A stretch of DNA of 64,000 bases. Source: Coriobacteriia bacterium (GTDB lineage: Bacteria; Actinomycetota; Coriobacteriia; Anaerosomatales; PALSA-660). Below are positions 40,898-64,000 of this stretch, in pieces. Position numbers and translations under genes: made by a program. Below the pieces are notes generated by a model. It was given only the letters and a program-made list of their open reading frames with translations. It searched no databases and was not told where the DNA came from. The stretch lies in the NCBI GenBank assembly GCA_025361335.1, contig JANYAK010000022.1:21737-85736 (forward strand). Direction: 5' to 3'. Position 1 is the stretch's first letter. Every line of letters begins with the position of its first letter.

Positions 40898-42706
40898 CTA
40901 CGCTCGAGGCTCGTCGTCGGAGAAGAGGCCCATGATCGCGTCCCTCTCCTCCTGCGGCAGGTAGGGATACTGGTCGTCTAGCGAGGGCGACTCGAACGTC
41001 CCGTCCTCGCGGCGCCGCGACACGATCTTCGGGCGCTTCTCCTGCGAGAATGAGACGTTCACCTCGCAGAGCCACGGGGCGTCGTCCTCCATGACGGCTG
41101 CCAACCCTTCGTCCAGGTCCGCATTCGTCTTGAACAGCCGATACCCGAGACCGTACGCCGCCGCGAGTGAGTCGAACCGCGGGTTGCTGACGCCCGATCC
41201 TGGGTGACACCCCACGAACCGTCCCCCGAAGAACGCCGTCTGCGTCGCTCGGATCGTCTCGTAGCCACCGTTGTTGAGCACGAAGATCTTCACGTTGAGT
41301 CGGTTGTGGCCGATCGTCAGGAGCTCCTGGATGTTGAGTTGCACGCTGCCGTCGCCGGTGACCACTACGGTGCGCGCCCCGTCCCGCGCGATGCACGCCC
41401 CGACCGCCGCCGGCAGGTCCCACCCCATCGCGCCGAAGCCGTAGTTCGTGATGACCCTTTGGCCGGGCTTCACCGCGAACGAATGGTGGATGGAAACCGC
41501 GTCCGAGCCGTTGCCGGTCAACACCACTTCTCCGGGTCCCATCGCCCTCGAGAGTTCTGCGGCCAGGACGTAGCTGTTCACGTGGTCCGCGTCTTCGAAG
41601 TAGTCGCTCGTCACGATCGGGTAGTCGCGTTTCCACCGGGTGACGGCATCGAGCCAGCGCTCGTCGAACGCGAAGCTTCTCCGTGGGACGTCCTCGACGA
41701 ACCGCTCCATGAACCACTTGACGTCGGCCAGAACCGCATGGTCCGCCACGAAGTGCGGCTTGCGCATCTCCTCGAGTTCGATGTTGACCATGACCCGCTT
41801 CGCCTTCGGGGCGAAGCCGCTGGTATCGAAGCCGACCGCGGTGACCGCCATGCTCGCGCCGAGGCACAGCAGGAGGTCCGCGTTCTGCAGGGTGAAGTTC
41901 GCTCTACGCTGGCCTGTGGGACCGAATCTGCCCAGGTAGAGGGGGTGCTCCTCGGGAAGTAGGTCCATCCCGCCCATCGTGGCCACGACAGGACAGCCGA
42001 CGTGCTCGACGAACGCCGTGAACGCCGCTTCCGCATGCCCGAGATGGATGCCGTCACCGCAGACGATCACCGGCCGTCTCGCATGCCGGAGGAGGTCGGC
42101 TACCTCGGCGATCCCTTCCGGGCGATCCAGCGCCGGATCGGGCTCCTGCGCGGGCGCGTCGGCTGCCGCGGCGGCGAGCGCTTCGTCGATGTCGCCGGCC
42201 TGCACGTCCAGGGGGATGTTCAGCCAGACGGGGCCCGGTCGCCCTGCCGTGGCGACGCGGATCGCGTGCGCCAGCTCGGCGGGGACGTCCTCGGAACGCA
42301 TCACGGTCTTCGCGTACTTCGTCACGGGCTGCCCCATGCTGACGATGTCGATCTCCTGGTGACCGGTCTGGCGATGCTTCGAGTAGTCCGCGATCAGGTC
42401 GGTGCGGACCTGACCCGAGATGACGAGCATCGGGACGGAATCCACCCAGGCGCCGGCTACCGCCGACAGCGCGTTCGTGCTTCCAGGACCGCTGGTGACG
42501 AGACACACACCTATGCCGCCCGTGACTCGGGCGTACGCCTCGGCGGCGATCGCGCAGGCCTGCTCGTGAGCATTGCACCAGTACTTGACGTCTGGGTGAC
42601 GCCCCAGCGCGTCCAGCAGGAACATGATGCCGCCGCCCGACACCGTGAAGACGTCCCGCACTCCGCGGGATGCGAGGTTCTCGATGACGTAGTCCGCAAC
42701 GATCAT
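40898..42706 (-). CDS. Thiamine-diphosphate enzyme, acetolactate-synthase large-subunit/YerE-like (paralogue 1)
   Basis: ORF trimmed to ATG 42706 (ATGA overlap with the upstream stop). NAHEQACAIAAEAYARVTG, SGPGSTNALSAVAGAWVDSVPMLVISGQV, and C-terminal ThDP fold GDGSVQLNIQEL. Confidence 0.85.
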   Translation of the reverse strand: MIVADYVIENLASRGVRDVFTVSGGGIMFLLDALGRHPDVKYWCNAHEQACAIAAEAYARVTGGIGVCLVTSGPGSTNALSAVAGAWVDSVPMLVISGQVRTDLIADYSKHRQTGHQEIDIVSMGQPVTKYAKTVMRSEDVPAELAHAIRVATAGRPGPVWLNIPLDVQAGDIDEALAAAAADAPAQEPDPALDRPEGIAEVADLLRHARRPVIVCGDGIHLGHAEAAFTAFVEHVGCPVVATMGGMDLLPEEHPLYLGRFGPTGQRRANFTLQNADLLLCLGASMAVTAVGFDTSGFAPKAKRVMVNIELEEMRKPHFVADHAVLADVKWFMERFVEDVPRRSFAFDERWLDAVTRWKRDYPIVTSDYFEDADHVNSYVLAAELSRAMGPGEVVLTGNGSDAVSIHHSFAVKPGQRVITNYGFGAMGWDLPAAVGACIARDGARTVVVTGDGSVQLNIQELLTIGHNRLNVKIFVLNNGGYETIRATQTAFFGGRFVGCHPGSGVSNPRFDSLAAAYGLGYRLFKTNADLDEGLAAVMEDDAPWLCEVNVSFSQEKRPKIVSRRREDGTFESPSLDDQYPYLPQEERDAIMGLFSDDEPRA

Positions 42707-43788
42707 TCCGGTGGCTTCCTCTCGGCCGAGGCAGTCATGGTACGCCATGCGGCGGTCCGACGGATGCCGTCCTCGAGCGTGACCGCCGCGGCCAGCCCCA
42801 ACTCCTCGGCGGCCCGCGACGTGTCAGGGACGTATCGCTGAGGCAGGACTCCCGATGTAGGCCTCTGTGCGACGTCCACCCGCAATGCGGGGTCGATGAC
42901 GCGGCCCACGGTCTCAGCCAGATCGAGGATGCTGACCTCCTTGTCGGAGCCGACGTTGTAGGGGCGAGCCGGCGCGCCACGCAGGAGCACCGTCCAGAGC
43001 CACCACGCGAGATCGGCAGCGTACAGGTAGGAGCGCATCGGCGTCCCGTCGCCCGTGATCCGGATCGTCTCGCCGGCCATCGCGTCCCGAATGAAGTTGC
43101 CGACCGCATACCCGGCGTCCATCGGCAGGTGCGGCCCCACGAAGGCGAACAGACGCGCGATCTTCGTCTCGAGTCCACTCTCCTGGTGGGCGGCGCAGCA
43201 CAGGAACTCCGCGGCCCGCTTGCCGTGAGCGTAGGCCGCCGTGGCGTCCTGAGGCGGCGGAGCCATGGGCAGGTCCTCGGAAACGCGGGCGCACTCCGCC
43301 GGCTGCCTGCCGTAGACGGCTCCGGAGCTCGTGTACAGGACGCTCCTCACGCCGCGGGACGTCGCGAAGTCCAGAACGCGGCGGGTCCCCTCGACCGCCG
43401 TGTCGAACTCGAGCGACGGCTTGTGAGCGGACGCCTCGGTGTTCGTCTCCGTGGCCATGTGGAGCACGTGCGTGAAGGGGCCTTCCGGGAAGCGGAACGA
43501 CCGGATATCGCCCTCCAGCAGGGTGACGACGCCCTCCCGCGCGAGGTGCGGCGCTCGCGCTGCCGCCCGGGCGGGATCGCGTGAGAGCACGACTGCCTCC
43601 ACCCCGAGGTCCAGCGCGTCGTTTGCCCACACGAGACTCTCGAGGACCCAGCCACCCACGAACCCCGTGCCGCCCGTGATGAAGAGACGGCATCCGCGCA
43701 GGTCGTCCCAAAGGCCCCGGCCGCGCTCCAGAACGTTGTCCAAGTCCGCAGCGAGGGGATTCGAGCGCCTGTCCGCCGCGTCACCCAT
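42703..43788 (-). CDS. NAD-dependent epimerase/dehydratase (extended SDR)
   Basis: ORF trimmed to ATG 43788. LFITGGTGFVGGWV Rossmann, AAYAHGKRAAE (YxxxK). Confidence 0.8.
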   Translation of the reverse strand: MGDAADRRSNPLAADLDNVLERGRGLWDDLRGCRLFITGGTGFVGGWVLESLVWANDALDLGVEAVVLSRDPARAAARAPHLAREGVVTLLEGDIRSFRFPEGPFTHVLHMATETNTEASAHKPSLEFDTAVEGTRRVLDFATSRGVRSVLYTSSGAVYGRQPAECARVSEDLPMAPPPQDATAAYAHGKRAAEFLCCAAHQESGLETKIARLFAFVGPHLPMDAGYAVGNFIRDAMAGETIRITGDGTPMRSYLYAADLAWWLWTVLLRGAPARPYNVGSDKEVSILDLAETVGRVIDPALRVDVAQRPTSGVLPQRYVPDTSRAAEELGLAAAVTLEDGIRRTAAWRTMTASAERKPPE

Positions 43789-51028: not shown

Positions 51029-52531
51029 CTACCTGCTGTCCCGGTCCCAATCGTCCTCTATCCGGATAATGTCGTCTTCGCCAAGGTAGTCCCCCACCTG
51101 CACCTCGATCACCTGCAGGAGGGACTCGCCGCGGTTCTCGATGCGGTGCACGGCGCCCAGTGGGATGAAGGCACTCTCGTTGAGCGGCACCTCGGTGACC
51201 CGGTCGTCGCAGGTCACGACCGCCTTGCCCGCGACCACGATCCAGTGCTCGCTGCGGTGCTCATGCCTCTGCAGGCTGGGCTTGGACCCCGGCTTGATCT
51301 CGAGCAGCTTGATCTGGTAGCCGAGGCCCTTGAGCAGGCTCGTCCAACTGCCCCACGGCCGAAGGCTCACCTTCGGCTGGGTCACCTCGGGAGCGCCCAT
51401 CGCCCGCAGCGCGTCGACCACAAGCCTGACGTCCTGCGCCCGTTCCTTCGGCAGGACGAGCGTGGCGTCCGTCGTGTCGACCACGATGAGATCCTCGACC
51501 CCGAGCGTCGCCACCAGCCGGTCGGTCGAGTACACGATGCTGCCGCGGCTACCGATGTCGACGCCGCGGCCGGAACGGACGTTGCCCGCGGAGTCCGGGT
51601 CGGCCATCTCCTCGAGCGCGAGCAGGGATCCGACGTCGCTCCACTTGAGCGGCGCGGGGATGACGGCGACCCGATCCGAGCGCTCCATGATGGCCACGTC
51701 GACCGAGACGGGCGCGATGCCGGCGAAGGCCACACGCGCGTCCTCTCTGTTGCGGTCGGCGGGCGGGAGGGCCGCGATCCCTCTCACGACGTCGGCGATG
51801 TGCGCCAGCTCCCCGCCCGCGGAATCGAGCTCTTCGAGAACGCGCGCCGCCTTCATCACGAAGATCCCGGCGTTCCAGAAATGCACGCCGCCCGAGACAT
51901 ACTCCTCGGCGCGGGCGTGGTCGGGCTTCTCGACGAACTCGGCCGCGACGTGCGGGACGGCGAGACCCACAGCCGACCCCGGCAGGGGCTCCCCCGCGCG
52001 GATGTAGCCGTAGCCGGTCTCGGGCCGCGTGGGCTCGATACCGATGGTGACCAGCCAGCCGTCGGCAGCCACGGCCGCCGCGGCCGCGATGCAGTCCGCC
52101 CACAACCCGCCATCCTCCAAGAGGTGGTCCGATGGCAGGACAACCATGATGGCGTCGGGGTCATCGACGGCGAGCGTCGCTGCGGCCAGCGCGATCGCCG
52201 GGGCGGTGTTGCGCGCGAGAGGTTCCTGGATGTAGCGCACGCGATGGAGCTCGGGGTCCGGCTGCGCGGTGAGATGGTTGCGCAGCTCGTCGAAAAGGCG
52301 CTCGTTCGTCACGACGGTGATGGCGGAACCGCCATCCGTGAACGGCAGGATCCTGTGCACGGCCGCGGCGATGAGCGACTCCGTTCCGAACATCGAGAGC
52401 AGCTGCTTCGGGTTCAGCTCGCGCGACAGGGGCCAGAACCGCTGCCCGCTCCCGCCCGCGAGAACGACGGCCTTCAGTCCGGGGATGGAGCGAGGCACGG
52501 CTGCTCCTCGTGGGGTCGGTTTCGGGGGCAT
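51029..52531 (-). CDS. manC: Mannose-1-phosphate guanylyltransferase / mannose-6-phosphate isomerase (bifunctional type)
   Basis: AVVLAGGSGQRFWPLSR, PSDHL, GYGYI, and a C-terminal cupin RPWGSWTSL...KPGSKPSLQRHEHRSEHWIVVAG. Confidence 0.9.
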   Translation of the reverse strand: MPPKPTPRGAAVPRSIPGLKAVVLAGGSGQRFWPLSRELNPKQLLSMFGTESLIAAAVHRILPFTDGGSAITVVTNERLFDELRNHLTAQPDPELHRVRYIQEPLARNTAPAIALAAATLAVDDPDAIMVVLPSDHLLEDGGLWADCIAAAAAVAADGWLVTIGIEPTRPETGYGYIRAGEPLPGSAVGLAVPHVAAEFVEKPDHARAEEYVSGGVHFWNAGIFVMKAARVLEELDSAGGELAHIADVVRGIAALPPADRNREDARVAFAGIAPVSVDVAIMERSDRVAVIPAPLKWSDVGSLLALEEMADPDSAGNVRSGRGVDIGSRGSIVYSTDRLVATLGVEDLIVVDTTDATLVLPKERAQDVRLVVDALRAMGAPEVTQPKVSLRPWGSWTSLLKGLGYQIKLLEIKPGSKPSLQRHEHRSEHWIVVAGKAVVTCDDRVTEVPLNESAFIPLGAVHRIENRGESLLQVIEVQVGDYLGEDDIIRIEDDWDRDSR

Positions 52532-54485: not shown

Positions 54486-56427
54486 GAGCCGCGAGGAGCG
54501 CGCCCAGCAGTCCCCACGGCAGCGGGCTGGAGGCGACCGAGCTCGCGAGAGCGACCTCGCGCACGCGGGCGTGCTCGAGCGCCCACACGAGGAACGCCGC
54601 GGAGGACGGCCCCTCCGAGGTCAGGCCGCTCCGCACGTCCGCCGGCGCCGACTTGAGCACCTCGGTGTCGACCAGTGCGAACGGAGCCGCCATGTCGCGA
54701 AGGCCCGGCACCGGACACACGCAGCGGCACAGAGACGACAGCACCCGGATCCCCACCCAGCCCGCGAGCCTCGGGGCCGGCGAACCCTCCGCGCGTGCGA
54801 CGGTGGCGAGACGCGAAGCGACCACTATGTCCGCGCCGGTCTCCCACTCCGCGGCGGCCGCCGCCTCGAACGCCGCGCTCGCGGACCGATCCTTGCGAGG
54901 CAGGATCTGGAACGCCCGTCTGCCTGTCCTCGGCGCCGCGGGCCCGTCGAGCAGCGCTCGGGATGACGGCACGACGACGCCCGCTACCAGCGGCACGAGC
55001 GCGAGCAACATCGGCATCGCGATGGCGCCCCAGTAGTAGCCCCACACGCCACCGCTGAACACCGTCAGCGCGATGACCGGTACGGCCACCGCGGCGCAGA
55101 GGAGCGCCTTGGTCCACACGGCACGCGTCGCGAACGCGCCGGCCAGCGCGAGCAGCGGGACGATCAGGTATATCCGGTCGCTCGCGCCGACGAGGTCTCC
55201 CGAGAACTGGAGCGCGTCTATCAGCCTCTGCGCACCACCCTGGAACCAGCGCGACACGCCCTCCGCGCTCTGTCCCCCGACGGGGGACCACAGGGCGTGA
55301 AGGCCGAGCAGGACGACGGGGCCCAGGATCGCCACTGCGAGACCACCGACCGCTTCGCGCCTCCTGGAGCTGACCAGCCACCACACGACATACACCGGCA
55401 CGAGGAACAACATCAGCTCGCGGAACGCGAACGCGACGACCACCAGGACGGCTCCCCATGTCCAGCGCTCGGTGACCATCGCGTACAGGAAGAAGACGGC
55501 CACCATCCCGGCCCAATACTCCGACAGAGGGAACCACAGCGTGAGGGCCGGCATGAGCAGGTACCCGCCGATCGCGATGGGGGCGATGATGGCGGCGGCA
55601 GGCTCGACGAAACGGCGAGCCACTCCGTACCCGGCCAGCATCGTGGCCACGGCGAGCACGTTGAACCCCCACAGCACCCGAAGTCCCGGGGGACCGGGGA
55701 GGATGTTCCAGAATTCGAAGAGCCAGCGCTGGCGGATGTTGAGCAGGCCGGGGGGCTGCCCCTGCAGCCGCGCGTCCTGATCGAACGCGCGCAGGAACGC
55801 CTGATAGTACGGAACACCCTGTGCTACGAGGTAGTCGATCTTGATGAACAGGTCGCCGTCGAAACGGTAGACCTCGGCCTGTGGCTCCGTGCTGACCCGC
55901 GCCCTGGTCGCGACGGTCAAGTCGCGCGGCGTCCCAGGCACCATGCCCGTCTGATAGAGCTGCAGACCGACGATGACCACGAGCGCGACCAGCACCACCG
56001 CGCGGAGCCGCCCTCGGGAACACGCCCATCCGACAACGACCGCCACGACGGCGCAGACGACCACCACGGCGAGCATGTCCGGGACTTGGGGAGCGACGAG
56101 TTTACGGGCGCCGGGCGACAGCGCGAACACGGCCATCGCGAGCACGCCGGCAACGGCGGAGAGGCCCGCGGCCGGGAGGATCTCGCGGATGGAGCGCACG
56201 GACAGGCCGACCACCAGACCGCACGCGAGTGCGCGCACTGCCCACGCCCCCGGCATAGGCAGTGCCCCCGCCAGCAGCAGCGCCAACGCTCCGAGAGCCG
56301 CTCCCGACAAGAGCCGGCGCCACTGCGGGTCGGCGGATCCATGGGGCCATCCGGGGTGTTTGACGTCGGTGGACTTCCCCCGGGCGCTCGAGCCGGCTCT
56401 CACAGGATGCTTGCTCTGCTTGGCCAT
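54454..56427 (-). CDS. Polytopic membrane protein with C-terminal degenerate half of a Ppm1/DPM1-type GT2 domain
   Basis: ATG 56427 with GAAGGAGGGGG upstream. At least 12 TM segments. The C-terminal ~170 aa align by eye to the second half of the neighbouring Ppm1 (ADIVVASRL / ADVAIGSRY; RDMAAPFALVDTEVL / HDCTSGFRCYRADVL; ARVREVAL / ARIVEVPI). Confidence 0.65.
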   Translation of the reverse strand: MAKQSKHPVRAGSSARGKSTDVKHPGWPHGSADPQWRRLLSGAALGALALLLAGALPMPGAWAVRALACGLVVGLSVRSIREILPAAGLSAVAGVLAMAVFALSPGARKLVAPQVPDMLAVVVVCAVVAVVVGWACSRGRLRAVVLVALVVIVGLQLYQTGMVPGTPRDLTVATRARVSTEPQAEVYRFDGDLFIKIDYLVAQGVPYYQAFLRAFDQDARLQGQPPGLLNIRQRWLFEFWNILPGPPGLRVLWGFNVLAVATMLAGYGVARRFVEPAAAIIAPIAIGGYLLMPALTLWFPLSEYWAGMVAVFFLYAMVTERWTWGAVLVVVAFAFRELMLFLVPVYVVWWLVSSRRREAVGGLAVAILGPVVLLGLHALWSPVGGQSAEGVSRWFQGGAQRLIDALQFSGDLVGASDRIYLIVPLLALAGAFATRAVWTKALLCAAVAVPVIALTVFSGGVWGYYWGAIAMPMLLALVPLVAGVVVPSSRALLDGPAAPRTGRRAFQILPRKDRSASAAFEAAAAAEWETGADIVVASRLATVARAEGSPAPRLAGWVGIRVLSSLCRCVCPVPGLRDMAAPFALVDTEVLKSAPADVRSGLTSEGPSSAAFLVWALEHARVREVALASSVASSPLPWGLLGALLAARVRAVFRPGD

Positions 56428-56540: not shown

Positions 56541-57278
56541 ATGCCCTCGACGATCGTCATAGTCCCCACCTATAACGAGGCGGAGAACCTTCCGGTTCTC
56601 GCGGCCCGCCTGCTCGCGCTCGATCCGCCGCTCGAAGTCCTGTGCGTGGATGATGGTTCGCCCGATGGGACGGGGCGCATAGCGGACGGACTGGCAGACC
56701 TGGACGCTCGATTCCGCGTCATCCACCGCGCGGGACCGCGCGGCTACGCCCGCGCGTGCGCCGAGGGGATGCTGTGGGCACTCGCCGCGGGCTACGAGGT
56801 CGTGTGCACGATGGACGCGGACCTCTCCCACGACCCGGACTCCCTGCCTGCACTGCTGAGCGCTATCGCGACATCCGCGGATGTCGCGATCGGCTCGCGC
56901 TATGTGGAGGGCGGGAGCCTCGAGGTGGACTGGGGACCCGTGAGGAGCGCGATCAGCAAGGCCGGCAGCGGCTACGCCCGCGCGATGGTCGGGACGAAGG
57001 TGCACGACTGCACGAGCGGTTTCCGATGCTACAGAGCCGACGTGTTGGGCCGGTTGCCGCTCGGCAGCATCCGCTCCGACGGGTACTCGTTCCTCATCGA
57101 GCTGCTCGCCATGCTGACGGCGGAGAAGGCCAGGATCGTCGAGGTCCCCATCGCGTACGTCGATCGTCGCGTGGGGACGTCGAAGATCTCAAGGGCCATC
57201 GTGCTGGAGGCGCTCGGCGTGGCGACGGGACTCGGGCTGCGGCGACTCGCTCGACCCGGGAGAAGGGCGAACGACTAG
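56541..57278 (+). CDS. ppm1: Polyprenol-phosphate mannosyltransferase (Ppm1/DPM1-like GT2)
   Basis: ORF trimmed to ATG 56541. IVIVPTYNEAENL, VDDGSPDGTG, MDADLSHDP, GSRYVEGG, DCTSGFRCYR, SDGYSFLIELL, EVPIAYVDRRVGTSK. Confidence 0.85.
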   Translation: MPSTIVIVPTYNEAENLPVLAARLLALDPPLEVLCVDDGSPDGTGRIADGLADLDARFRVIHRAGPRGYARACAEGMLWALAAGYEVVCTMDADLSHDPDSLPALLSAIATSADVAIGSRYVEGGSLEVDWGPVRSAISKAGSGYARAMVGTKVHDCTSGFRCYRADVLGRLPLGSIRSDGYSFLIELLAMLTAEKARIVEVPIAYVDRRVGTSKISRAIVLEALGVATGLGLRRLARPGRRAND

Positions 57279-57739
57279 CCCTTCGGAAGGGTCGCGCCGT
57301 CCGCCTCGTACGTCTCGGCGAGCACCTGGTCCGTGGTCCGATAGGTGAAGTACTTGTGGCCGACGTAGCTGACGATGGTGACCACCGCGATCGCGGGAAG
57401 CTGCGCGATGATGAGCCGCGGCCGCCACACCTCCATGATGACGGCCACGATCGCCAGGTTCAGCACGAACCCACCCGCGTACACCACGTAGCTGCGCAGG
57501 TACTCCTTCAGCCAGTTCCCCTTGGTGCGGAACACGAGCAGCTTGAACGTGAACAGGTTCTGCGTCACGCCGATCACCCAGTTGATCGTGAGTAGCAGCG
57601 TGTAGTGCAGCCGGGAGTGCAGCAGCGAGTCCAGGATCCAGAGCGTACCGAGGCCGAACAGCGTGTTCCACGCGCCCACGACGAGGAACCGCGCCTTCTC
57701 GCCATGCCTGTCGTACAGCGGCCGCAGGCGCGCGGGCAC
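57275..57739 (-). CDS. GtrA-family small membrane protein
   Basis: Probable GTG 57739, 2 nt after the upstream stop. ARFLVVGAWNTLFGLGTLWIL...YVGHKYFTY, four TM helices. Its stop shares CTAG with the convergent ppm1. Confidence 0.75.
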   Translation of the reverse strand: MPARLRPLYDRHGEKARFLVVGAWNTLFGLGTLWILDSLLHSRLHYTLLLTINWVIGVTQNLFTFKLLVFRTKGNWLKEYLRSYVVYAGGFVLNLAIVAVIMEVWRPRLIIAQLPAIAVVTIVSYVGHKYFTYRTTDQVLAETYEADGATLPKG

Positions 57740-57741
57740 CC

Positions 57742-58689
57742 TCACAGGCCGATCTCCTCCCGCACGATGAAGTTCGGCCGCTGCTTGACCTCGTCGTAGA
57801 TGAGCCCGATGTACTCGGCCACGACGCCGAGCATCGTGAAGAGGAAGCCGAACATGAGCAGCATCACGCCCATGATCGATCCGAACCCGGCGAACGGCAC
57901 GCCGTAGAAGATGGCCCTGACGATCTCGTAGGCGAGCAGGACGAACGATAGCGCCGAGACCGCCAGCCCCGTGCCGGTGATGAACCGCAGCGGCACGTAC
58001 GAGTACGACAGTATCCCCTTGATGGCAAGCGCCAGCACCATGCGAGTCCCGGCCTTCGTCTCTCCCGCGAACCGGGGCGGGCGCTCGTACTCGATGCCGA
58101 TGGAGCGGAACCCCGTCCAGTAGAACATCCCGCGCATGAAACGGTTGTGCTCCCGCATGGCGTTGATGGCCTCGTAGACGCGACGATCCACGAGGCGGTA
58201 GTCGCTGACGTTCTTCGGGAACAGCCCGCCGGTCATGGCGTTGATGAGCCAGTAGAAGAGCTGGGAGTTCATGCGCCGCAAAGCGCCGGTCCCCTGACGC
58301 TTCGTGACGATCTGGAAGACGTTCTCGTAGCCGAGTTCCCACTGCTCGATGAACCGGGTGATCAGCTCGGGCGGATCCTGCAGGTCGGCGCACATGATCA
58401 CGGCCGCATCGCCCCGCGCATAGCTGAGCCCGGCCGTCACGCCTCCGTCGGGTCCGAAGTTGCGGGAGAGCCGCAGGATCTTGAACCGGGGGTCGCGCTG
58501 GCGCAGCGCCAGGAGCCGGTCGTAGGTGCCGTCGACCGAGCCGTTCTCTACGACGATGACCTCGAAGTCGTACTTCGGGTTCTCGGCGAACGTCGCCGCC
58601 AGTTGCACCCCGAGTTCGTCGACATTGCCCTCCTCGTTGTAGGCGGGCGTGACGATGGTGATGAGCCTGCGGGCGGGGTCTTCGGTCAT
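57742..58689 (-). CDS. GT2 polyprenyl-phosphate glycosyltransferase (GtrB/ArnC-like), intact
   Basis: ORF trimmed to ATG 58689 (GGAAGGA upstream). ITIVTPAYNEEGNV, VVENGSVDGT, MCADLQDPPE, SDYRLVDRRV, FMRGMFYWTGF, and two C-terminal TM helices with GVVAEYIGLIYDEVKQRPNF. Confidence 0.85.
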   Translation of the reverse strand: MTEDPARRLITIVTPAYNEEGNVDELGVQLAATFAENPKYDFEVIVVENGSVDGTYDRLLALRQRDPRFKILRLSRNFGPDGGVTAGLSYARGDAAVIMCADLQDPPELITRFIEQWELGYENVFQIVTKRQGTGALRRMNSQLFYWLINAMTGGLFPKNVSDYRLVDRRVYEAINAMREHNRFMRGMFYWTGFRSIGIEYERPPRFAGETKAGTRMVLALAIKGILSYSYVPLRFITGTGLAVSALSFVLLAYEIVRAIFYGVPFAGFGSIMGVMLLMFGFLFTMLGVVAEYIGLIYDEVKQRPNFIVREEIGL

Positions 58690-58789: not shown

Positions 58790-60508
58790 TCACTCGCCCC
58801 CGGCCTGCGCCTCCGGGGGAGGCTCCATCTCGTAGATCGCATTCCCGAATGTGACCTTGGGCCGGACCCGGGACGCGGACGAGATCGACACGTCGACGAG
58901 CGCCGGGGAGGAGGGATCGCCGAACAGCCATTCGATTGCGTCGCCGGTGCCGTCTTCTTCGTCGAGACGCCGCGCGGGCACTCCGAACGCCTCGGCCACC
59001 GCCACGAAGTCGGGTGCTCCGTAGCCCCACGCCGTCGACTGGTAGCGCGCATCGAAGTACTCGTCCTGGAACTGGCGCACCATGCCCAGGCAGTGGTTGT
59101 TGAACACGACGATCTTGGCGGGGAGGCCCAAGCGGGCGATGGTCTCGAGTTCCTGGATGTTGACCTGCATCCCGCCGTCGCCCGAGACGACCACGACCGG
59201 TCTGCCGGGTACGGCGAGAGCGACGCCGGCGGCGGCCGGCAACGCGAATCCCATGGCGCCCAGGCCCGCCGAACTGAGGAAGCGCTGATCCGGGCCGAGC
59301 CTCAGGGACTGGGCGGCCCACATCTGGTTCTGCCCGACGTCCGCAACGAACGCGGAGGCCTGCCCCGCCCGCTCGGATAGGACGTGCAGGAAACGGGCCG
59401 GATTCACGCCCGGCAGATCGGTGAGCTCGTTCTCGTCCGGGAATCGTTCGCGCAGGGCCGCGATCTCGCTGCGCCATCCGGTCCGCACCGGCCGCGACTC
59501 CGAGCCCTTCGCCTCCGCGATGGCCGCCCTGAGGAAGGCGCCCGCGTCGGCCTCGACCGACAGGACCCCGTCCATGCCGCCGTCAAGCTCCGCCGGATCG
59601 ACGTCGATCCTCACGAACCGCTTGCCGGCCGCGAACCCGTTCCGGTCGCTGCCGGTCTGACGAACGTCCAGCCGGCTCCCGATGACGCAGACCATGTCCG
59701 CGCGGCCCAGCGCCAGGTTCGCCCACCTGTTGCCGTACGTCCCGATCATGCCTACGTGCAGCGGGTCGTTCGACGGGACGGCGTCGACGCCCAGCAGCGA
59801 GACCACCACCGGCACGTCCATCAGACGCGCGAACTCGCGAAGCGCATCAGTCGCGCGAGCAGTGCGCACGCCGCCACCGACGAGCAGGAGGGGGCGTTCG
59901 GCGCGGGATATGGCGTCAAGCGCGGCTTGGGCCTGCGGAAGCGACGGCTCCCGCACGGAGGGCGGGGTGAACGCGCCCGCGGACTCGTCCGCCTCCCCCC
60001 TTTGCACATCCATGGGGATGTCGAGAAGCACGGGGCCCGGACGTCCCGAGAGTGCCAGGGCGAACGCCTCATCGATGGCCGCCCCGACCCCGGCGGGATC
60101 GTCCAGAAGGCGCGCGCCCTTGGTGACGCCTCGCGCCAACGACACGATGTCCGTCTCCTGGAAGCCGACCTGGCGCACCTTCCTGGCACCGCGAAGCTCG
60201 TTGCGGTTCACCTGCCCGGTGATGAAGACCGCCGGCACCGAGTCGAACCAGCAACTCGCAATCCCGGTCAGAAGGTTCGTCGCACCGGGTCCGCTCGTGG
60301 CCATCGCGACCCCCGGGATGCCGGTCATGCGGGCGCCTGCCTCCGCGGCGAACGCGGCGGCCTGCTCGTGGTGCATGCTCACGACATCGATCTCCGAACG
60401 TTCGCCGAGCGCGTCGAGAAGGTGCGTGATCATCCCGCCGCACATCTCGAAGACGCGCGGCACTCCGTGCCGGACGAGGCGATCGACGATGACGCGCGCG
60501 GCCTTCAT
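58790..60508 (-). CDS. Thiamine-diphosphate enzyme, acetolactate-synthase large-subunit/YerE-like (paralogue 2)
   Basis: ORF trimmed to ATG 60508 (TGATG 1-nt overlap with the upstream stop). MHHEQAAAFAAEAGARMTG, SGPGATNLLTGIASCWFDSVPAVFITGQV, GDGGMQVNIQEL. Confidence 0.85.
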   Translation of the reverse strand: MKAARVIVDRLVRHGVPRVFEMCGGMITHLLDALGERSEIDVVSMHHEQAAAFAAEAGARMTGIPGVAMATSGPGATNLLTGIASCWFDSVPAVFITGQVNRNELRGARKVRQVGFQETDIVSLARGVTKGARLLDDPAGVGAAIDEAFALALSGRPGPVLLDIPMDVQRGEADESAGAFTPPSVREPSLPQAQAALDAISRAERPLLLVGGGVRTARATDALREFARLMDVPVVVSLLGVDAVPSNDPLHVGMIGTYGNRWANLALGRADMVCVIGSRLDVRQTGSDRNGFAAGKRFVRIDVDPAELDGGMDGVLSVEADAGAFLRAAIAEAKGSESRPVRTGWRSEIAALRERFPDENELTDLPGVNPARFLHVLSERAGQASAFVADVGQNQMWAAQSLRLGPDQRFLSSAGLGAMGFALPAAAGVALAVPGRPVVVVSGDGGMQVNIQELETIARLGLPAKIVVFNNHCLGMVRQFQDEYFDARYQSTAWGYGAPDFVAVAEAFGVPARRLDEEDGTGDAIEWLFGDPSSPALVDVSISSASRVRPKVTFGNAIYEMEPPPEAQAGGE

Positions 60509-61836
60509 CAGGCCGACACGGTGGTGGTGATGGTCGATGCCATGTAGTCGAGCATCTCCTGCGTCATGCCGGGGTAGACGCCCACCCACAGCGAATCCCG
60601 CATGATGCGGTCGGTGTTGGTCAGCTCGCCCACGACGCGATATCCCTCGCCGCGCTCGCGCATCCCGTCAAAGCACGGATGGCGCGTCAGGTTCCCTGCG
60701 AACAGCGCGCGAGTCTGCACCTTCGCGTCCTCCAGCGCGCGCACGAGCGCGTCGCGCGTGACGCCCGAGCCCTCGCGCACCGTCATGAGGAAGCCGAACC
60801 ATGACGGGTCGGAGCCCGGGGTCGGCTCCGGCAGGACGAGCGTGTCGCCGAGCGGGGCGAGCGCATCGCGCAGGTACGCCCAGTTCCGCTTGCGGGCCTC
60901 GGTGAAGCCGGGGAGCTTTTCGAGCTGGGCGCAGCCGATCGCCGCCTGCATGTCGGTGGCCTTCAGGTTGAACCCGAACTCCGAGTAGACGTACTTATGG
61001 TCGTAGCCGAACGGCAAGGTGCCGTGCTGCTGCTCGAACCGCTTGCCACAGCTGTTGTCGCGCCCCGACGGGCACCAGCAGTCGCGACCCCAGTCGCGCA
61101 TGGACAGTGCGATCTTGGCGAGCGTCTCGTCGCTGGTGTAGACGGCGCCGCCTTCGCCCATGGTCATGTGGTGCGGCGGGTAGAAGCTCGACGTACCCAG
61201 GTCGCCGAACGACCCGGTGAGCCTGCCCTCGTAGCGCGAGCCAAGCGCGTCGCAGTTGTCCTCGACGAGCCACAGGTCGTGGCCATCGCAGAAGTCGCGG
61301 ACGGCGCGCACCTCGAACGGGTTGCCGAGCGTATGGGCGAGCATGACCGCCTTGGTGCGCGGCGAGAGCGCGGCCTCGAGCGCAGAGACGTCGACGTTGG
61401 CCGTCTCGAGTCTCACGTCCACGAAGACCGGCACGGCGCCGAACTGCACGATCGGGGCGACGGTCGTCGGGAAGCCGGCGGCGACCGTTATGACCTCGTC
61501 ACCGGCCCTCACTCTCCGCTCCCCGAGCCGTTCGGAGGTGAGCGTCGCGAATGCCAGCAGGTTCGCAGAAGAGCCCGAGTTGACGAGCAGGGCTGTCTCC
61601 ACCCCGAGGAAGGAGGCAAGACCCTCTTCGAACCGGGCGGAATAGCGGCCGTAGGTGAGCCAGAAGTCGAGCGACGAATCGACGAGGTTCACCAGCTCCT
61701 TCTCGTCGAAGACGCGTCCCGCGTAGGAGACCCTGGATCGGCCGGGGACGAACCCGTGATCGCGAGCGAACGTAGCCCGGTGGTACTCGCTCACCTTCTC
61801 GAGTATCTCCCGGCGGAGCATATCGGCGTCCGACAT
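60508..61836 (-). CDS. ddhC: PMP/[2Fe-2S]-dependent NDP-6-deoxy-4-hexulose 3-dehydrase (E1; DdhC/RfbH/AscC type)
   Basis: ORF trimmed to ATG 61836 (AAGGAG 9 nt upstream). SFYPPHHMTMGEGG (His replaces the PLP lysine), CWCPSGRDNSC (C-x-C-x7-C cluster motif), LVNSGSSANL, DNCDALGS. Confidence 0.88.
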   Translation of the reverse strand: MSDADMLRREILEKVSEYHRATFARDHGFVPGRSRVSYAGRVFDEKELVNLVDSSLDFWLTYGRYSARFEEGLASFLGVETALLVNSGSSANLLAFATLTSERLGERRVRAGDEVITVAAGFPTTVAPIVQFGAVPVFVDVRLETANVDVSALEAALSPRTKAVMLAHTLGNPFEVRAVRDFCDGHDLWLVEDNCDALGSRYEGRLTGSFGDLGTSSFYPPHHMTMGEGGAVYTSDETLAKIALSMRDWGRDCWCPSGRDNSCGKRFEQQHGTLPFGYDHKYVYSEFGFNLKATDMQAAIGCAQLEKLPGFTEARKRNWAYLRDALAPLGDTLVLPEPTPGSDPSWFGFLMTVREGSGVTRDALVRALEDAKVQTRALFAGNLTRHPCFDGMRERGEGYRVVGELTNTDRIMRDSLWVGVYPGMTQEMLDYMASTITTTVSA

Positions 61837-61876
61837 CCTTGGGGGCTCCTTGTGGTGGGCGTCGTTGCTGAACGAC

Positions 61877-61884
61877 GATTCTAC
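61877..61884 (-). promoter_or_regulatory. -10-like GTAGAATC box about 42 nt upstream of ddhC
   Basis: Plus strand GATTCTAC shares 8 nt with the 14-mer box. A hairpin AGGCC-TTTTCG-GGCCT lies in the -35 position. Confidence 0.3.
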
Positions 61885-61967
61885 CGCAAACGCGCAGGCC
61901 TTTTCGGGCCTCGCCCGCCACGGCGACCCCTCTTCGGGAGCGAGGGATCGGTCGCCTAGGCATCCTG

Positions 61968-61973
61968 TATACT
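61968..61973 (+). promoter_or_regulatory. -10-like TATACT (preceded by TG) about 44 nt upstream of the membrane-protein gene at 62017
   Basis: CCTGTATACTCC lies in the divergent gap 61837..62016. Confidence 0.25.
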
Positions 61974-62016
61974 CCCTGCGTCGGCACGAACCGCAGCCCA
62001 GGAAGGCCCGCCAGGC

Positions 62017-63885
62017 ATGAAGCCCGACTGGTTCGACGCCGTGTTCGAGGGCCGACGCCGGTGGCTCCTGCTCACCGCGGCCAGCCTCCTTGCCTTCTTC
62101 ACGCTCTCCCCGATCCTGCAAGGCGGCTTCTATGCGGACGACGCCAAGAAGTCGCTGCTCTCGGCGCGCTACTTCGCCCTTGTCGGCGGGTCGGTCCTGC
62201 GCAGCATGATCGACTCGCAGGCCTCCTGGATCGTCGGACAAGGGCGGTTCTTCCCCTTGTCGGGCTACGTCGACCTCGTCTTCTACGCGGTCAACGGGAA
62301 CGCGCTCATCTACAAGCTCTTCATCCTGGCTCTCGTCATCGTCGACCTCCTCCTGTTCCGGGTCCTGGTCGTGAAGCTCACCCGCTCGCAGGCGATGGGC
62401 CTGCTCGCGCTCCTGCTGCCGCCGCTCATCTTCCAAGTGCGATACGCCGACGATGCCCTCACGACCTACCAGGGCCTCCTCCAGATCGTGCTGCTCTACA
62501 CGCTCCTCTCGCTGATCGCGCTCGTCGCCCATATCGACACGGGCAAGAGGCGCTACCTCGTTGCGAGCCTCGTGGCGTACGCCGCGAGCCTCCTCACGTA
62601 CGAGGTGGGCATCCCGTTCTTCCTCGTGTTCTGGCTGGTCGCCTACCTGTACCCGCGGCGCCGGCGATTCGCGGACGCCACAAGAACGACATGGCCCTTC
62701 GCCGCGCTGGCCGTGCTCGCAGGTCTGGGCGCGATCGCCATCCGCGCGCGCTACGGCATCCCCGTGACGGCCAGCGCGGGCGGCAGCCCCTACGCCCTCA
62801 ACCTCGATCCGCTCGCCGTGGCCGGCACGCTCGCCAAGCAGACGACGGCCGCGCTCCCGCTCACCTACTACGCCATGTACCTGTACCGTGCGGCGGTCGG
62901 CGCGTGGTCGTCTCCGCCTCTTCCCGGATTCGTCGGAACGATCGTCGCGCAGCCGTTAACATCGGTGGCTCTGGCTGTGGGCTACGGATCGCTCATCTGG
63001 ATCGCGTGCGTGCGAGCTGCGCGGGAGCGGGTCTCCGGGGACCGATCGATATGGCCGTTGCTCGCATCGGTCGGGGGCGGACTCCTCGTGCTTCCGGGCA
63101 CGCTCCTCGCCCTCTCTCCCAAGTACCAGCAAGCGACGTGGGTCAGTTGGGGCGTCGGATACCTGCCCGTGTACATATCGTGTTTCGGCGTCGCCCTGCT
63201 CGCCGTCGCCGGTCTGCAGCCGCTGCTCGCGTCCTCGCTTCCGCGCGTGCGCCGCACGGTCACGGGCGTCGCCATCGCGCTCGCGGCCTTCCTCGGCGTG
63301 CTCGCGTACGGCGACACCGGGAGCGTCATCCAGGGCTGGGCTTCGATCTACGACCACCCCCGCGCGATCGAGATCGCTGCCCTCGAACGCGGGATCATGG
63401 CGCCCCTCGCCGATGGCGCGGCGCTCCTGACCCGCGGCTCGGACTGGGAGACCCCCACGTTGTTCAAGCTCTACGCCGGGAAGAACGTGGGCCCGCTCGG
63501 GTCCTTGGGCGCGCCGGGTGACGACGTCCTCGAGCGAGCGTCCGACTCGACACCCTCGACGGCGGGGATCAGGTACACCTTCGGTCCGGGAGCCGATCTC
63601 CGCGCGCTGGACTTCCAGGGCGTCACGGACCACGACGGGTACGCGACGTTCGGGACGGTGGCGTCGCTCACCGTGGACAGCCAAGGCGCCGTATCCGACG
63701 CGAAGGTCGAGCCGTCACGCGTGTATCTCTCGTGGAGCGAGCGGGCCGCGGCCGCCTCGGGCGCGACCCGCTATGACTCGCTGGCCTCACTGGGGCTCGA
63801 CAAGTCGTCGTGGGTGCGCAAGGGTTCGGGCCCGGGTTGGGCGCTCTACGAGCGGCGCAGCCTCGTGCCTTCCGCCGCTCCGTAG
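62017..63885 (+). CDS. Polytopic membrane protein, GT-C-like, function unknown
   Basis: At least 12 TM segments. Acidic loop after TM1 (LQGGFYADDAKKSL). C-terminal ~200-aa soluble domain. Divergent from the ddhC operon. Confidence 0.7.
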   Translation: MKPDWFDAVFEGRRRWLLLTAASLLAFFTLSPILQGGFYADDAKKSLLSARYFALVGGSVLRSMIDSQASWIVGQGRFFPLSGYVDLVFYAVNGNALIYKLFILALVIVDLLLFRVLVVKLTRSQAMGLLALLLPPLIFQVRYADDALTTYQGLLQIVLLYTLLSLIALVAHIDTGKRRYLVASLVAYAASLLTYEVGIPFFLVFWLVAYLYPRRRRFADATRTTWPFAALAVLAGLGAIAIRARYGIPVTASAGGSPYALNLDPLAVAGTLAKQTTAALPLTYYAMYLYRAAVGAWSSPPLPGFVGTIVAQPLTSVALAVGYGSLIWIACVRAARERVSGDRSIWPLLASVGGGLLVLPGTLLALSPKYQQATWVSWGVGYLPVYISCFGVALLAVAGLQPLLASSLPRVRRTVTGVAIALAAFLGVLAYGDTGSVIQGWASIYDHPRAIEIAALERGIMAPLADGAALLTRGSDWETPTLFKLYAGKNVGPLGSLGAPGDDVLERASDSTPSTAGIRYTFGPGADLRALDFQGVTDHDGYATFGTVASLTVDSQGAVSDAKVEPSRVYLSWSERAAAASGATRYDSLASLGLDKSSWVRKGSGPGWALYERRSLVPSAAP

Positions 63886-64000
63886 AGGGACGACTGCCGG
63901 GAAGTTCACCAAGGCCCGCTTCAGTACCACGTACTCTCCCACTCGCGCTTCCTCGACCCATCCACGCGCGAGGGCGGGTCCGAAGGATGCGCCCACATCG

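What the first reader, a model, noticed from the sequence alone, without database searches (positions are those of the whole stretch)
58790..61836. E1-type 3-dehydrase fused in an operon with a YerE-like ThDP enzyme: predicted branched-chain 3,6-dideoxyhexose pathway missing its usual partners
Seen: 60508-61836 has SFYPPHHMTMGEGG (His replacing the PLP lysine) and CWCPSGRDNSC (C-x-C-x7-C). These are hallmarks of the PMP/[2Fe-2S] 3-dehydrase E1 (DdhC/AscC/RfbH). Its stop overlaps (TGATG) the start of an ALS-like ThDP enzyme. Known: in Yersinia pseudotuberculosis, YerE adds a two-carbon unit from pyruvate to the E1/E3 product to form yersiniose. Missing from this window are the E3 reductase (AscD/DdhD), glucose-1-phosphate cytidylyltransferase, CDP-glucose 4,6-dehydratase and the branch ketoreductase. 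Inference: this is a yersiniose-like branched sugar made on a different nucleotide carrier or with non-orthologous reductases. The spare gmd, the SDRs or general ferredoxin systems might fill those roles.
Basis: partly seen in the sequence, partly recalled or inferred. Interest (0 to 1): 0.7.

Follow-up and report, generated by a model that had tools for sequence, protein, structure and literature searches.

The report
Branched dideoxy-sugar operon, partners just off-window
This is a real gene pair for making a branched 3,6-dideoxy sugar of the yersiniose type in an uncultured actinobacterium, but its 'missing' CDP-glucose genes sit a few kilobases past the window's end, so it is a variant of a known pathway, apparently feeding a lipid-linked route to the cell surface.

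Summary
Window 60508-61836 (-) encodes a full-length E1/RfbH-type 3-dehydrase with the catalytic His and all four [2Fe-2S] Cys in the published spacing. Its TGA shares one base with the ATG of a ThDP enzyme (58790-60508).

The ThDP enzyme is YerE-like, not an acetolactate synthase. It lies in a clade whose genes sit beside E1 and an SDR with no aldolase, which favours pyruvate as donor.

"Missing its usual partners" is mostly a window-edge artefact. Contigs 100% identical to the window's last 2557 bases continue past it and carry ddhB (complete) and ddhA (3' part) on the E1 strand, 4-5.4 kb upstream.

No linked E3 reductase was found here, in 80 related genomic loci, or in the four closest operons. 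Lack of a linked E3 is therefore the norm.

The YerF-like ketoreductase is truly absent from 67.3 kb. Related operons read ddhA-ddhB-E1-yerE-yerF; some continue yerF-GT2-gtrA.

Here yerE is followed by a GtrB/ArnC-like GT2 and GtrA, next to a membrane protein with a confident GT-C fold. I infer that the CDP-sugar is moved onto polyprenyl phosphate and added outside the membrane.

This is a known pathway kind with a modestly new delivery context.

The parts
60508..61836 (-). ddhC/rfbH-type E1: PMP/[2Fe-2S] CDP-4-keto-6-deoxy-D-glucose 3-dehydrase, 442 aa
   Evidence: RfbH equivalog 726 bits against cutoff 423. PDB 3bcx E=2.6e-160, 57% identity. His222 and Cys195/253/255/263 are invariant in 83/83 orthologues. 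It is 75-85% identical to the E1 of Actinomycetota/Coriobacteriia MAG ddhA-ddhB-E1 operons.
58790..60508 (-). YerE-like ThDP carboligase, 572 aa; its ATG shares one base with the E1 stop
   Evidence: Three ThDP domains and GDG-X26-NN. Best PDB match is 5ahk at 425 bits, against 328 bits for the best plant AHAS. It falls below every ALS equivalog cutoff. Orthologues at 57-63% identity always follow E1. It sits in the aldolase-free clade A of the ThDP tree.
57742..58689 (-). GtrB/ArnC/PgfS-like GT2 with two C-terminal TM helices: predicted polyprenyl-phosphate glycosyltransferase, 315 aa
   Evidence: Pfam GT2. NCBIfam PgfS 230 bits and ArnC 117 bits, both below cutoff. TM segments at about 234-299. 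Of 35 metagenome loci with orthologues (49-77% identity), 27 carry a YerE-family ThDP gene within 8 kb. It is 33-36% identical to a GT2 family present in 33/80 E1 loci, always on the E1 strand.
57275..57745 (-). GtrA-family small membrane protein (candidate flippase), 156 aa; 4-nt overlap with the GT2 gene
   Evidence: Pfam GtrA_DPMS_TM E=1.7e-17. Gene call from L087. A GtrA gene follows the GT2 orthologue in 14/35 metagenome loci.
62017..63885 (+). Polytopic membrane protein with a GT-C fold (candidate extracytoplasmic transferase), 622 aa, divergent from E1
   Evidence: No Pfam hit. Only 33 homologues, with invariant D41-D42. AF2 pLDDT 91.3, pTM 0.91. The top 13 Foldseek PDB hits are all GT-C enzymes (STT3, PglB, Pmt4, ArnT), prob 1.00, TM 0.33-0.41. 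Homologues lie next to GT2-GtrA in L099, L102, L107, L111 and in L095.
63787..64000 (-). 3' end of a 658-aa polytopic membrane protein that continues past the window. It is the last gene of a ddhA-ddhB-membrane protein run (window-equivalent 63787-67277)
   Evidence: L081 gene calls. About 13 hydrophobic segments. Upstream in L081 lie DdhB (window-equivalent 65760-66872) and the DdhA 3' part (66869-67276). L081 is 100% identical to the window over 2557 nt.
40898..42748 (-). Second YerE-family ThDP enzyme (616 aa), a possible second consumer of the E1 product
   Evidence: Best PDB match is 8rph (JanthE, a YerE-like enzyme) at 350 bits. It is 40% identical to the L085 ThDP enzyme that sits with an HpcH aldolase and E1. 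It falls in clade B of the tree, whose contexts contain aldolases.

Best explanation
The finding is the core of a CDP-linked, yersiniose-type branched-sugar pathway in an uncultured member of the Actinomycetota; the closest named relatives are Coriobacteriia MAGs.

Shown by sequence:
- ddhA and ddhB lie 4-5.4 kb upstream on the same strand, just outside the window. They would make CDP-4-keto-6-deoxy-D-glucose.
- The E1 orthologue keeps every cofactor residue.
- Its translationally coupled neighbour is a YerE-family ThDP enzyme.

Inferred steps:
1. E1 removes the C3 hydroxyl. The two electrons come from an unlinked E3 or from general ferredoxin/flavodoxin reductases.
2. The YerE-like enzyme decarboxylates an alpha-keto acid and adds the acyl group to C4 of CDP-3,6-dideoxy-4-keto-glucose. 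Pyruvate is the most likely donor, because this enzyme's clade never has an aldolase beside it.
3. No YerF-type reductase is linked. The side chain either stays as a 4-C-acetyl group or is reduced by an unlinked SDR.
4. The next two genes move the sugar onto polyprenyl phosphate (GtrB/ArnC-like GT2) and across the membrane (GtrA).
5. A GT-C enzyme attaches it to a surface glycan. Candidates are the divergent 622-aa protein and/or the 658-aa protein after ddhB.
For: - E1 identity.
- ddhA/ddhB just off-window in 100% identical contigs. They are 48-56% and 44-51% identical to the ddhB/ddhA next to E1 in other genomes, and 69-70% identical to those of L088.
- Conserved operon ddhA-ddhB-E1-ThDP-SDR in the closest relatives.
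- ThDP enzyme closest to YerE-like structures and below ALS cutoffs.
- Clade/context correlation (no aldolase beside clade A). The literature shows that the donor follows the linked aldolase (PMC9306805).
- No linked E3 in any of 80+ related loci. SpnQ precedent for general reductases: PMC8987622.
- GT2/GtrA/GT-C.
- The same module, ddhA-ddhB-E1-YerE-YerF-GT2-GtrA, occurs in L117 and L119. GT2 orthologues are linked to YerE-family genes in 27/35 loci.
Against: - No enzyme activity or glycan structure is available.
- The rest of the genome could not be read, so an E3 or a YerF elsewhere cannot be excluded or confirmed.
- The donor keto acid is inferred only from context and a rough NJ tree.
- No GtrB-like enzyme is known to me to use a CDP-sugar. 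The GT2 could instead carry a common sugar. GT2 orthologues in relatives more often accompany the aldolase-linked ThDP type (24 of 27) than the YerE clade found here (3 of 27).
- The GT-C match has modest TM-scores (0.33-0.41).
- A second YerE paralogue in the window could compete for the same E1 product.
Confidence: 0.7

Rival explanations
1. One reading: the pathway truly lacks ddhA/ddhB and runs on another nucleotide carrier (GDP- or dTDP-4-keto-6-deoxyhexose from gmd or rmlB) with non-orthologous partners.
For: gmd x2, rmlA/rmlB and a LegB-like dehydratase are in the window. No ddhA/ddhB lies inside the 64 kb.
Against: ddhB and ddhA lie 4-5.4 kb upstream in contigs identical to the window. 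E1 is 75-85% identical to E1s inside ddhA-ddhB-E1 operons and far above the RfbH equivalog cutoff. The GDP-specific ColD matches at only 190 bits.
Confidence: 0.04
2. The branch is longer than two carbons. The ThDP enzyme would use a functionalised 2-keto acid made elsewhere (for example by the NeuB-type synthase at 46733-47794 or an unlinked aldolase), giving an erwiniose/caryophyllose-like sugar rather than a yersiniose-like one.
For: YerE-family donors range from C3 to C8 and are hard to read from sequence (PMC9306805). GT2 orthologues usually accompany aldolase-linked ThDP enzymes. The window holds NeuB and a second YerE paralogue.
Against: The enzyme sits in the clade whose neighbours are E1 plus an SDR with no aldolase, as do its 57-63% orthologues. 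Its closest solved structure is 5ahk, which I recall as PpYerE; the review cited reports PpYerE products alongside those of YpYerE, whose preferred donor is pyruvate. The NeuB gene is adjacent to the other ThDP gene, not to this one.
Confidence: 0.2
3. The CDP-branched sugar is used directly by a cytoplasmic Leloir glycosyltransferase, as in Yersinia O-antigen. The GT2-GtrA pair downstream would then carry an ordinary sugar (Glc, GlcNAc, Man) in an unrelated side-chain modification.
For: Characterised GtrB/ArnC/CsbB-type enzymes known to me use UDP-sugars (own knowledge). L088, L090 and L091 follow yerF with other GT2/GT10 genes. A 100-nt gap separates the ThDP and GT2 genes.
Against: GT2 orthologues at 49-77% identity are linked to ddh/E1/YerE-family genes in 29/35 loci, often abutting them. 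A more distant GT2 family tracks E1 on the same strand in 33/80 loci. No UDP-sugar gene is in the operon.
Confidence: 0.25
4. The ThDP enzyme is an ordinary acetolactate synthase large subunit for branched-chain amino acid synthesis that happens to lie next to E1.
For: The top NCBIfam hits are ALS models, and database names are 'acetolactate synthase'.
Against: All ALS equivalog scores are below cutoff (466 against 538 for TIGR00118). No regulatory small subunit is nearby. The start codon overlaps the E1 stop. The E1-ThDP order is conserved across phyla (36/80 loci). The best structural relative is a YerE-like enzyme.
Confidence: 0.03

Closest known systems
Yersiniose A pathway of Yersinia pseudotuberculosis O:VI (DdhA, DdhB, E1/DdhC, E3/DdhD, YerE, YerF)
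   Same: ddhA, ddhB, an E1 with identical cofactor residues (57% identity to the crystallised E1), and a YerE-family ThDP enzyme placed right after E1. A CDP carrier is expected.
   Different: No linked E3 and no YerF. The ddhAB genes are separated from E1-yerE by two membrane-protein genes. The operon continues into a GtrB-like GT2 and GtrA rather than sitting in a Wzx/Wzy O-unit cluster. The host is a high-GC actinobacterium.
YerE-like acyl-branched sugar clusters (ErwE of Pectobacterium, MMAR_2332 of M. marinum, MyGE of M. gastri; more than 200 predicted from gene clusters; PMC9306805, PMC12247030)
   Same: The same logic applies: a ThDP carboligase adds a 2-keto-acid-derived acyl group to the E1 product. 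The window even holds a second paralogue of the aldolase-associated type.
   Different: Those characterised clusters include an aldolase that makes the donor and a YerF-like reductase. This operon has neither, which points to pyruvate and possibly an unreduced branch.
SpnQ (dTDP-sugar 3-dehydrase of spinosyn forosamine synthesis)
   Same: An E1-type PMP/[2Fe-2S] 3-dehydrase that works without a dedicated E3, using general ferredoxin/flavodoxin reductase pairs (PMC8987622). This is a precedent for the missing E3.
   Different: SpnQ acts on a dTDP-2,6-dideoxy substrate. The window protein is an RfbH equivalog, far closer to CDP-specific E1.
Three-component extracytoplasmic glycosylation (GtrA/GtrB/GtrV of Shigella/Salmonella phages; CsbB/GtcA/YfhO; ArnC/ArnT; PgfS/PgfM; pentofuranose systems, PMC11127046)
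   Same: A GT2 with C-terminal TM helices, a GtrA-family protein and a GT-C-fold membrane protein are clustered together.
   Different: The implied donor is a CDP-activated branched dideoxyhexose rather than a UDP-sugar or PRPP. The GT-C protein belongs to a small family with no Pfam model. None of this has been tested biochemically.

Membership tests
E1 / DdhC / RfbH (CDP-6-deoxy-L-threo-D-glycero-4-hexulose 3-dehydrase) | Aspartate-aminotransferase-type DegT fold, full length | tested here: met
   PF01041 matches residues 47-436, E=8e-90. The alignment to 3bcx covers residues 5-435 of 442.
E1 / DdhC / RfbH (CDP-6-deoxy-L-threo-D-glycero-4-hexulose 3-dehydrase) | His in place of the PLP-binding Lys (H220 of E1) | tested here: met
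   His222 aligns with H220 and is invariant in 83/83 orthologues.
E1 / DdhC / RfbH (CDP-6-deoxy-L-threo-D-glycero-4-hexulose 3-dehydrase) | [2Fe-2S] motif C-X57-C-X1-C-X7-C; this separates E1/SpnQ from ColD | tested here: met
   Cys195/253/255/263 have exactly this spacing and are invariant in 83/83 orthologues. The non-ligand C257 position varies.
E1 / DdhC / RfbH (CDP-6-deoxy-L-threo-D-glycero-4-hexulose 3-dehydrase) | Score above the curated equivalog threshold | tested here: met
   NF011936 RfbH scores 726 bits against a cutoff of 423.
E1 / DdhC / RfbH (CDP-6-deoxy-L-threo-D-glycero-4-hexulose 3-dehydrase) | Substrate supply: linked glucose-1-P cytidylyltransferase and CDP-glucose 4,6-dehydratase | tested here: met
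   Both are found 4-5.4 kb upstream, outside the window, in L081, which is 100% identical over 2557 nt.
E1 / DdhC / RfbH (CDP-6-deoxy-L-threo-D-glycero-4-hexulose 3-dehydrase) | Dedicated E3 reductase (AscD/DdhD: Fer2 + FAD + NAD domains) | tested here: not met
   None in the window plus 3.3 kb. None in 80 related loci (motif scan and clustering) or in L085-L092. The rest of the genome could not be read.
E1 / DdhC / RfbH (CDP-6-deoxy-L-threo-D-glycero-4-hexulose 3-dehydrase) | C3 deoxygenation of CDP-4-keto-6-deoxyglucose | not testable with these tools
   This needs an enzyme assay.
YerE-like ThDP carboligases | Three-domain ThDP decarboxylase architecture with the GDG-X(24-27)-NN cofactor motif | tested here: met
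   PF02776, PF00205 and PF02775 all match. GDG is at residue 443 and NN at 470-471.
YerE-like ThDP carboligases | Closer to characterised YerE-like enzymes than to acetohydroxyacid synthases | tested here: met
   5ahk scores 425 bits against 328 bits for the best AHAS. All ALS equivalogs are below cutoff. That 5ahk is PpYerE rests on my memory of Hampel et al. 2018, which is listed as ref. 57 in PMC12247030.
YerE-like ThDP carboligases | Gene context: adjacent to the genes that make the 3,6-dideoxy-4-keto sugar acceptor | tested here: met
   One-base overlap with E1. The E1-ThDP order is conserved in L088, L090, L091, L117 and L119, and a ThDP gene lies within 10 kb of E1 in 36/80 loci.
YerE-like ThDP carboligases | Companion YerF-type side-chain ketoreductase | tested here: not met
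   The YerF-like SDRs of L088, L090 and L091 have no orthologue in 67.3 kb (best 26% identity, E=6e-6).
YerE-like ThDP carboligases | Ketone (ketosugar) acceptor and 2-keto acid donor activity | not testable with these tools
   This needs an enzyme assay.
Three-component (GtrB/GtrA/GT-C) extracytoplasmic glycosylation | Polyprenyl-phosphate GT2 synthase with C-terminal TM helices | tested here: met
   GT2 domain. PgfS and ArnC are the best NCBIfam hits, both below cutoff. Two or three hydrophobic segments at residues 234-299.
Three-component (GtrB/GtrA/GT-C) extracytoplasmic glycosylation | GtrA-family small membrane protein | tested here: met
   PF04138 E=1.7e-17. The gene overlaps the GT2 gene by 4 nt.
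Three-component (GtrB/GtrA/GT-C) extracytoplasmic glycosylation | GT-C fold transferase with an acidic motif in the first outer loop | tested here: met
   The AF2 model has pLDDT 91. The top 13 PDB matches are all GT-C enzymes. D41-D42 are invariant. TM-scores are only 0.33-0.41.
Three-component (GtrB/GtrA/GT-C) extracytoplasmic glycosylation | Lipid-linked monosaccharide intermediate made from the pathway's nucleotide sugar | not testable with these tools
   Inferred only from synteny.

The most novel reading that the evidence does not exclude
The GtrB-like GT2, GtrA and the Pfam-less GT-C family form a dedicated three-component system. It would load a CDP-activated, ThDP-branched 3,6-dideoxyhexose onto polyprenyl phosphate and add it to a glycan outside the membrane. 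This would be the first such system fed by a CDP-sugar. Because yerF is absent, in this organism it would deliver an unreduced 4-C-acetyl sugar. The second YerE paralogue, sitting in a nonulosonic-acid-like cluster with no CMP-synthetase in view, might use an ulosonic acid as donor on the same E1 product.
Probability: 0.35. Interest if true: 0.6.

Novelty: new variant of a known kind. Interest (0 to 1): 0.35.

Why it matters
Acyl-branched dideoxy sugars are rare, strongly antigenic surface components, and YerE-like enzymes are wanted as biocatalysts for tertiary alcohols.

This locus adds an actinobacterial member. Together with about 30 related environmental loci, it suggests that such sugars are often delivered through a lipid-linked, GT-C-dependent route rather than by cytoplasmic transferases. 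If confirmed, that would widen the donor range of three-component glycosylation systems to CDP-sugars and define a new GT-C family.

The practical lesson for the scan is that 'missing partner' arguments near a window edge need the flanking sequence. Here the partners were 2-3 kb beyond the last base.

Tried and rejected
1. Exact-product look-ups for E1 and for my first ThDP translation found nothing. The ThDP start was one codon off; the correct 572-aa product is P0121.
2. The roughly 96-kb source contig is never shown by the look-up tool. Only short Logan contigs could be used.
3. Attempts to extend beyond L081, to look for ddhD or yerF upstream of ddhA, all failed. A homologue search with the DdhA fragment gave no 100% match; the best was 77%, from a Coriobacteriia MAG. 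An exact 55-mer scan of JGI metagenomes found nothing.
4. A regex scan for E3 (Fer2 motif plus RxY[ST] plus G[TS]GxxP) in 1878 ORFs of 80 loci gave no candidates. The relaxed hits I inspected were radical-SAM proteins, not reductases.
5. A sigma-70 promoter and terminator scan of 56.3-62.3 kb was uninformative.
6. Pfam at E up to 5 gave only insignificant hints for the large membrane proteins: Alg6/Alg8 at 0.022 and YfhO at 0.27. I therefore turned to structure prediction.
7. Considered and rejected on the residue, score and context evidence above: ColD-type chemistry, a GDP or dTDP carrier, and an ordinary ALS.
8. The in-silico survey of YerE-like clusters (Krug et al. 2024) is not held in the library.

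Full report
**What is in the sequence.** The window has 65-72% G+C. Almost all of it is one large polysaccharide-biosynthesis region.

On the minus strand, 60508-61836 is an intact 442-aa ORF preceded by AAGGAG. It matches Pfam DegT_DnrJ_EryC1 (E=8e-90). It scores 726 bits on the NCBIfam RfbH equivalog, whose cutoff is 423. Against the crystallised E1 dehydrase of Y. pseudotuberculosis (3bcx) E=2.6e-160, with 57% identity over 431 aligned columns. The GDP-specific, cluster-free ColD matches at only 190 bits.

In the alignment to E1, His222 equals the catalytic H220. Cys195, 253, 255 and 263 equal C193, C251, C253 and C261, giving the published spacing C-X57-C-X1-C-X7-C. E1's extra, non-ligand C257 is Arg here. 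In an alignment of 83 orthologues, the His and all four Cys are invariant, while the C257 position takes ten different residues. This is E1-type, not ColD-type, chemistry.

**The ThDP enzyme.** The E1 stop (TGA, 60510-60508) shares its A with the ATG at 60508-60506. The gene is thus 58790-60508 and encodes 572 aa, the length on record for this product (P0121).

- It has the three ThDP-enzyme domains and a GDG-X26-NN motif.
- Every acetolactate-synthase equivalog model scores below its cutoff, for example 466 against 538 bits for TIGR00118.
- Its best solved relative is 5ahk (425 bits), against 328 bits for the best plant AHAS. I recall 5ahk as the YerE homologue of Pseudomonas protegens (Hampel et al. 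2018, cited in PMC12247030). This identification rests on memory.
- The closest database relatives (57-63% identity) come from Coriobacteriia and Actinomycetota MAGs. This is also the best clue to the organism.

**The 'missing partners'.** Inside the 64 kb there is no ddhA, ddhB or E3. However, E1 lies only 2.2 kb from the window's end.

Looking up the divergent neighbour gene (62017-63885) returned four Logan contigs. They match window 61444-64000 with 0 mismatches in 2557 bases. The longest, L081, runs 3277 bases further. Window coordinate equals L081 coordinate plus 61443. On the E1 strand L081 carries three genes:

- a 658-aa polytopic membrane protein at window-equivalent 63787-65763;
- a 370-aa CDP-glucose 4,6-dehydratase at 65760-66872 (TIGR02622 equivalog, 464.5 bits against a cutoff of 278);
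- the last 135 residues of glucose-1-phosphate cytidylyltransferase from 66869 onward (TIGR02623 positions 122-255, 200 bits).

These are 48-56% and 44-51% identical to the ddhB and ddhA that flank E1 in other genomes, and 69-70% identical to those of the close relative L088. The CDP route is therefore present and linked. The idea of another nucleotide carrier is not needed.

**E3 and YerF.** I scanned 80 genomic loci carrying E1 homologues at 60-69% identity, spread across many phyla. Clustering of their ORFs gave ddhB in 72 loci, ddhA in 70, a YerE-family ThDP enzyme in 33-36, and a GtrB-like GT2 in 33. No ferredoxin-NAD(P) reductase-type protein was found.

The four closest actinobacterial operons also show no E3 within 10 kb (L085, L088, L090, L091/92). 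An unlinked or absent E3 is therefore the rule outside the enterobacterial O-antigen clusters. SpnQ shows that an E1-type dehydrase can run on general ferredoxin or flavodoxin reductase pairs (PMC8987622). Whether this genome has an E3 elsewhere could not be tested.

The branch ketoreductase is different. In L088, L090 and L091 the operon is ddhA-ddhB-E1-ThDP-SDR (313-321 aa). That SDR has no orthologue in the window plus extension; the best match is 26% identity at E=6e-6. YerF is truly missing from 67.3 kb.

**Which donor?** The literature shows that YerE-family enzymes differ in donor, and that long-branch enzymes travel with an aldolase that makes the 2-keto acid (ErwE, MMAR_2332, MyGE; PMC9306805). 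[quoted passage not shown]

A rough NJ tree of 39 ThDP enzymes from these loci splits in two.

- The target enzyme falls with L088 and others whose neighbours are E1 and an SDR, with no aldolase.
- The other clade has HpcH-, HMGL- or NeuB-type aldolases or synthases beside it.

This favours pyruvate and a two-carbon branch, but it remains context-based inference.

The window has a second ThDP enzyme (40898-42748) in the aldolase-associated clade. Its best solved relative is JanthE (8rph, 350 bits).

**What happens to the sugar.** After a 100-nt gap comes a 315-aa GT2 (57742-58689). It has two to three C-terminal hydrophobic segments and best, sub-threshold, matches to PgfS and ArnC. It is followed, with a 4-nt overlap, by a GtrA-family protein (57275-57745).

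The divergent 622-aa protein (62017-63885) has no Pfam match and only 33 homologues, which share an invariant D41-D42. An AlphaFold model built on that alignment is confident (pLDDT 91.3, pTM 0.91). Its 13 best PDB matches are all GT-C enzymes (STT3, PglB, Pmt4, ArnT), each with probability 1.00 and TM-scores of 0.33-0.41.

Synteny links these parts to the sugar pathway.

- GT2 orthologues (49-77% identity) were found in 35 metagenome loci of at least 6 kb. Of these, 27 carry a YerE-family ThDP gene within 8 kb, and 29 carry at least one of ThDP, E1, ddhA or ddhB.
- L117 and L119 read ddhA-ddhB-E1-YerE-YerF-GT2-GtrA.
- L099, L102, L107 and L111 place a homologue of the GT-C protein next to GtrA. 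L095 does the same in an Actinobacteria MAG.
- A more distant GT2 family (33-36% identity) sits on the E1 strand in 33/80 genomic loci.

I therefore infer a three-component route: CDP-sugar to polyprenyl-phosphate-sugar, then flipping, then GT-C transfer. This resembles the Gtr, Arn and CsbB/YfhO systems and the pentofuranose systems (PMC11127046). No biochemical data support a CDP-sugar donor for this enzyme class, and I found none in the held literature.

**Assessment.** The window's locus is the lineage's standard module with two changes. First, ddhAB are displaced upstream by two membrane-protein genes. Second, yerF is absent.

The finding is a real and correctly recognised E1-YerE pair. 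Its headline oddity is a window-edge artefact for ddhA/ddhB and a common condition for E3. What remains of interest is the missing YerF, the likely lipid-linked delivery through a new GT-C family, and two YerE paralogues in one region.

I rate it a new variant of a known kind, of moderate interest.

Noticed in passing
window 39898-52531 (-): A legionaminic-acid-like nonulosonic acid cluster. It holds a ManC-type guanylyltransferase, LegB-like dehydratase (TIGR04180, 480 bits against a cutoff of 475), DegT aminotransferase, CBS-nucleotidyltransferase, NeuB, NeuC-type 2-epimerase, PtmA-like SDR, GFO/IDH/MocA oxidoreductase and an SDR epimerase. It then continues into a JanthE-like ThDP enzyme (40898-42748) and an acyltransferase_3. 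No CMP-nonulosonate synthetase or LegH-type acetyltransferase was seen anywhere in the window. The ThDP enzyme might use an ulosonic acid as donor.
   Followed up: partly
L009, L022, L026, L050; L008, L015, L058, L068, L074, L077; L016, L021, L029 (genomic loci): In gut and environmental MAGs (Victivallaceae, Lachnospiraceae, Smithella, uncultured Campylobacter), E1 and a YerE-family enzyme sit beside one of three gene sets: a NeuB-like synthase plus HAD phosphatase, an HMGL-type aldolase, or an HpcH aldolase plus HAD. This predicts several different long-branched sugars that appear uncharacterised.
   Followed up: partly
L019, L032, L038, L040, L045, L049, L057, L059, L073, L078 and others: Twelve of the 80 E1 loci have ddhA-ddhB-E1 plus the GtrB-like GT2 but no ThDP enzyme. 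This suggests that plain 3,6-dideoxyhexoses may also be delivered via polyprenyl phosphate, mostly in Lachnospiraceae.
   Followed up: no
L111, L116, L123, L124, L134, L138, L140, L144, L146, L148, L155, L167; L095: A DHQ-synthase-like gene recurs with an HpcH aldolase, a YerE-family ThDP enzyme and the GT2 orthologue (14 of 35 metagenome loci). Its role in a branched-sugar pathway is unclear.
   Followed up: no
window 52614-54485 (-) and 25094-26965 (-): Two paralogous polytopic membrane proteins of 623 aa (38% identity) with no Pfam family. A homologue of 52614-54485 (46% identity) sits directly before the GT-C homologue in L093. Together with 54454-56427 and 34027-35703, the region holds at least six large uncharacterised membrane proteins.
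   Followed up: partly
window 56541-57278 (+) with 51029-52531 (-): A soluble DPM1/Ppm1-like GT2 (no TM segment) lies near a ManC gene and converges on gtrA. This could be a second polyprenyl-phosphate-mannose branch feeding the neighbouring membrane proteins.
   Followed up: no
window 15002-18207 and 20939-23133, 32657-33841: rmlA, rmlB and rmlD are present, but no rmlC was seen. Two gmd paralogues lie side by side, and an Fcl-like GDP-fucose synthase is also present. At least five different nucleotide-sugar pathways are packed into one 64-kb region.
   Followed up: no
window 2-6942: A B12-binding radical SAM protein, two multihaem c-type cytochromes (one NapC/NirT-like), an NHL-repeat protein, a TPR protein and a Rex-type redox repressor flank the glycan region. 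Multihaem cytochromes strike me as unusual company for an actinobacterium.
   Followed up: no
window 61444-64000 = L081-L084; 50.3-60.5 kb = L087: Contigs identical to the window occur in several sequencing runs (SRR23617162-64, SRR22198307; L087 is reported in 6 samples). The same strain therefore recurs across samples. The source contig is about 96 kb.
   Followed up: partly
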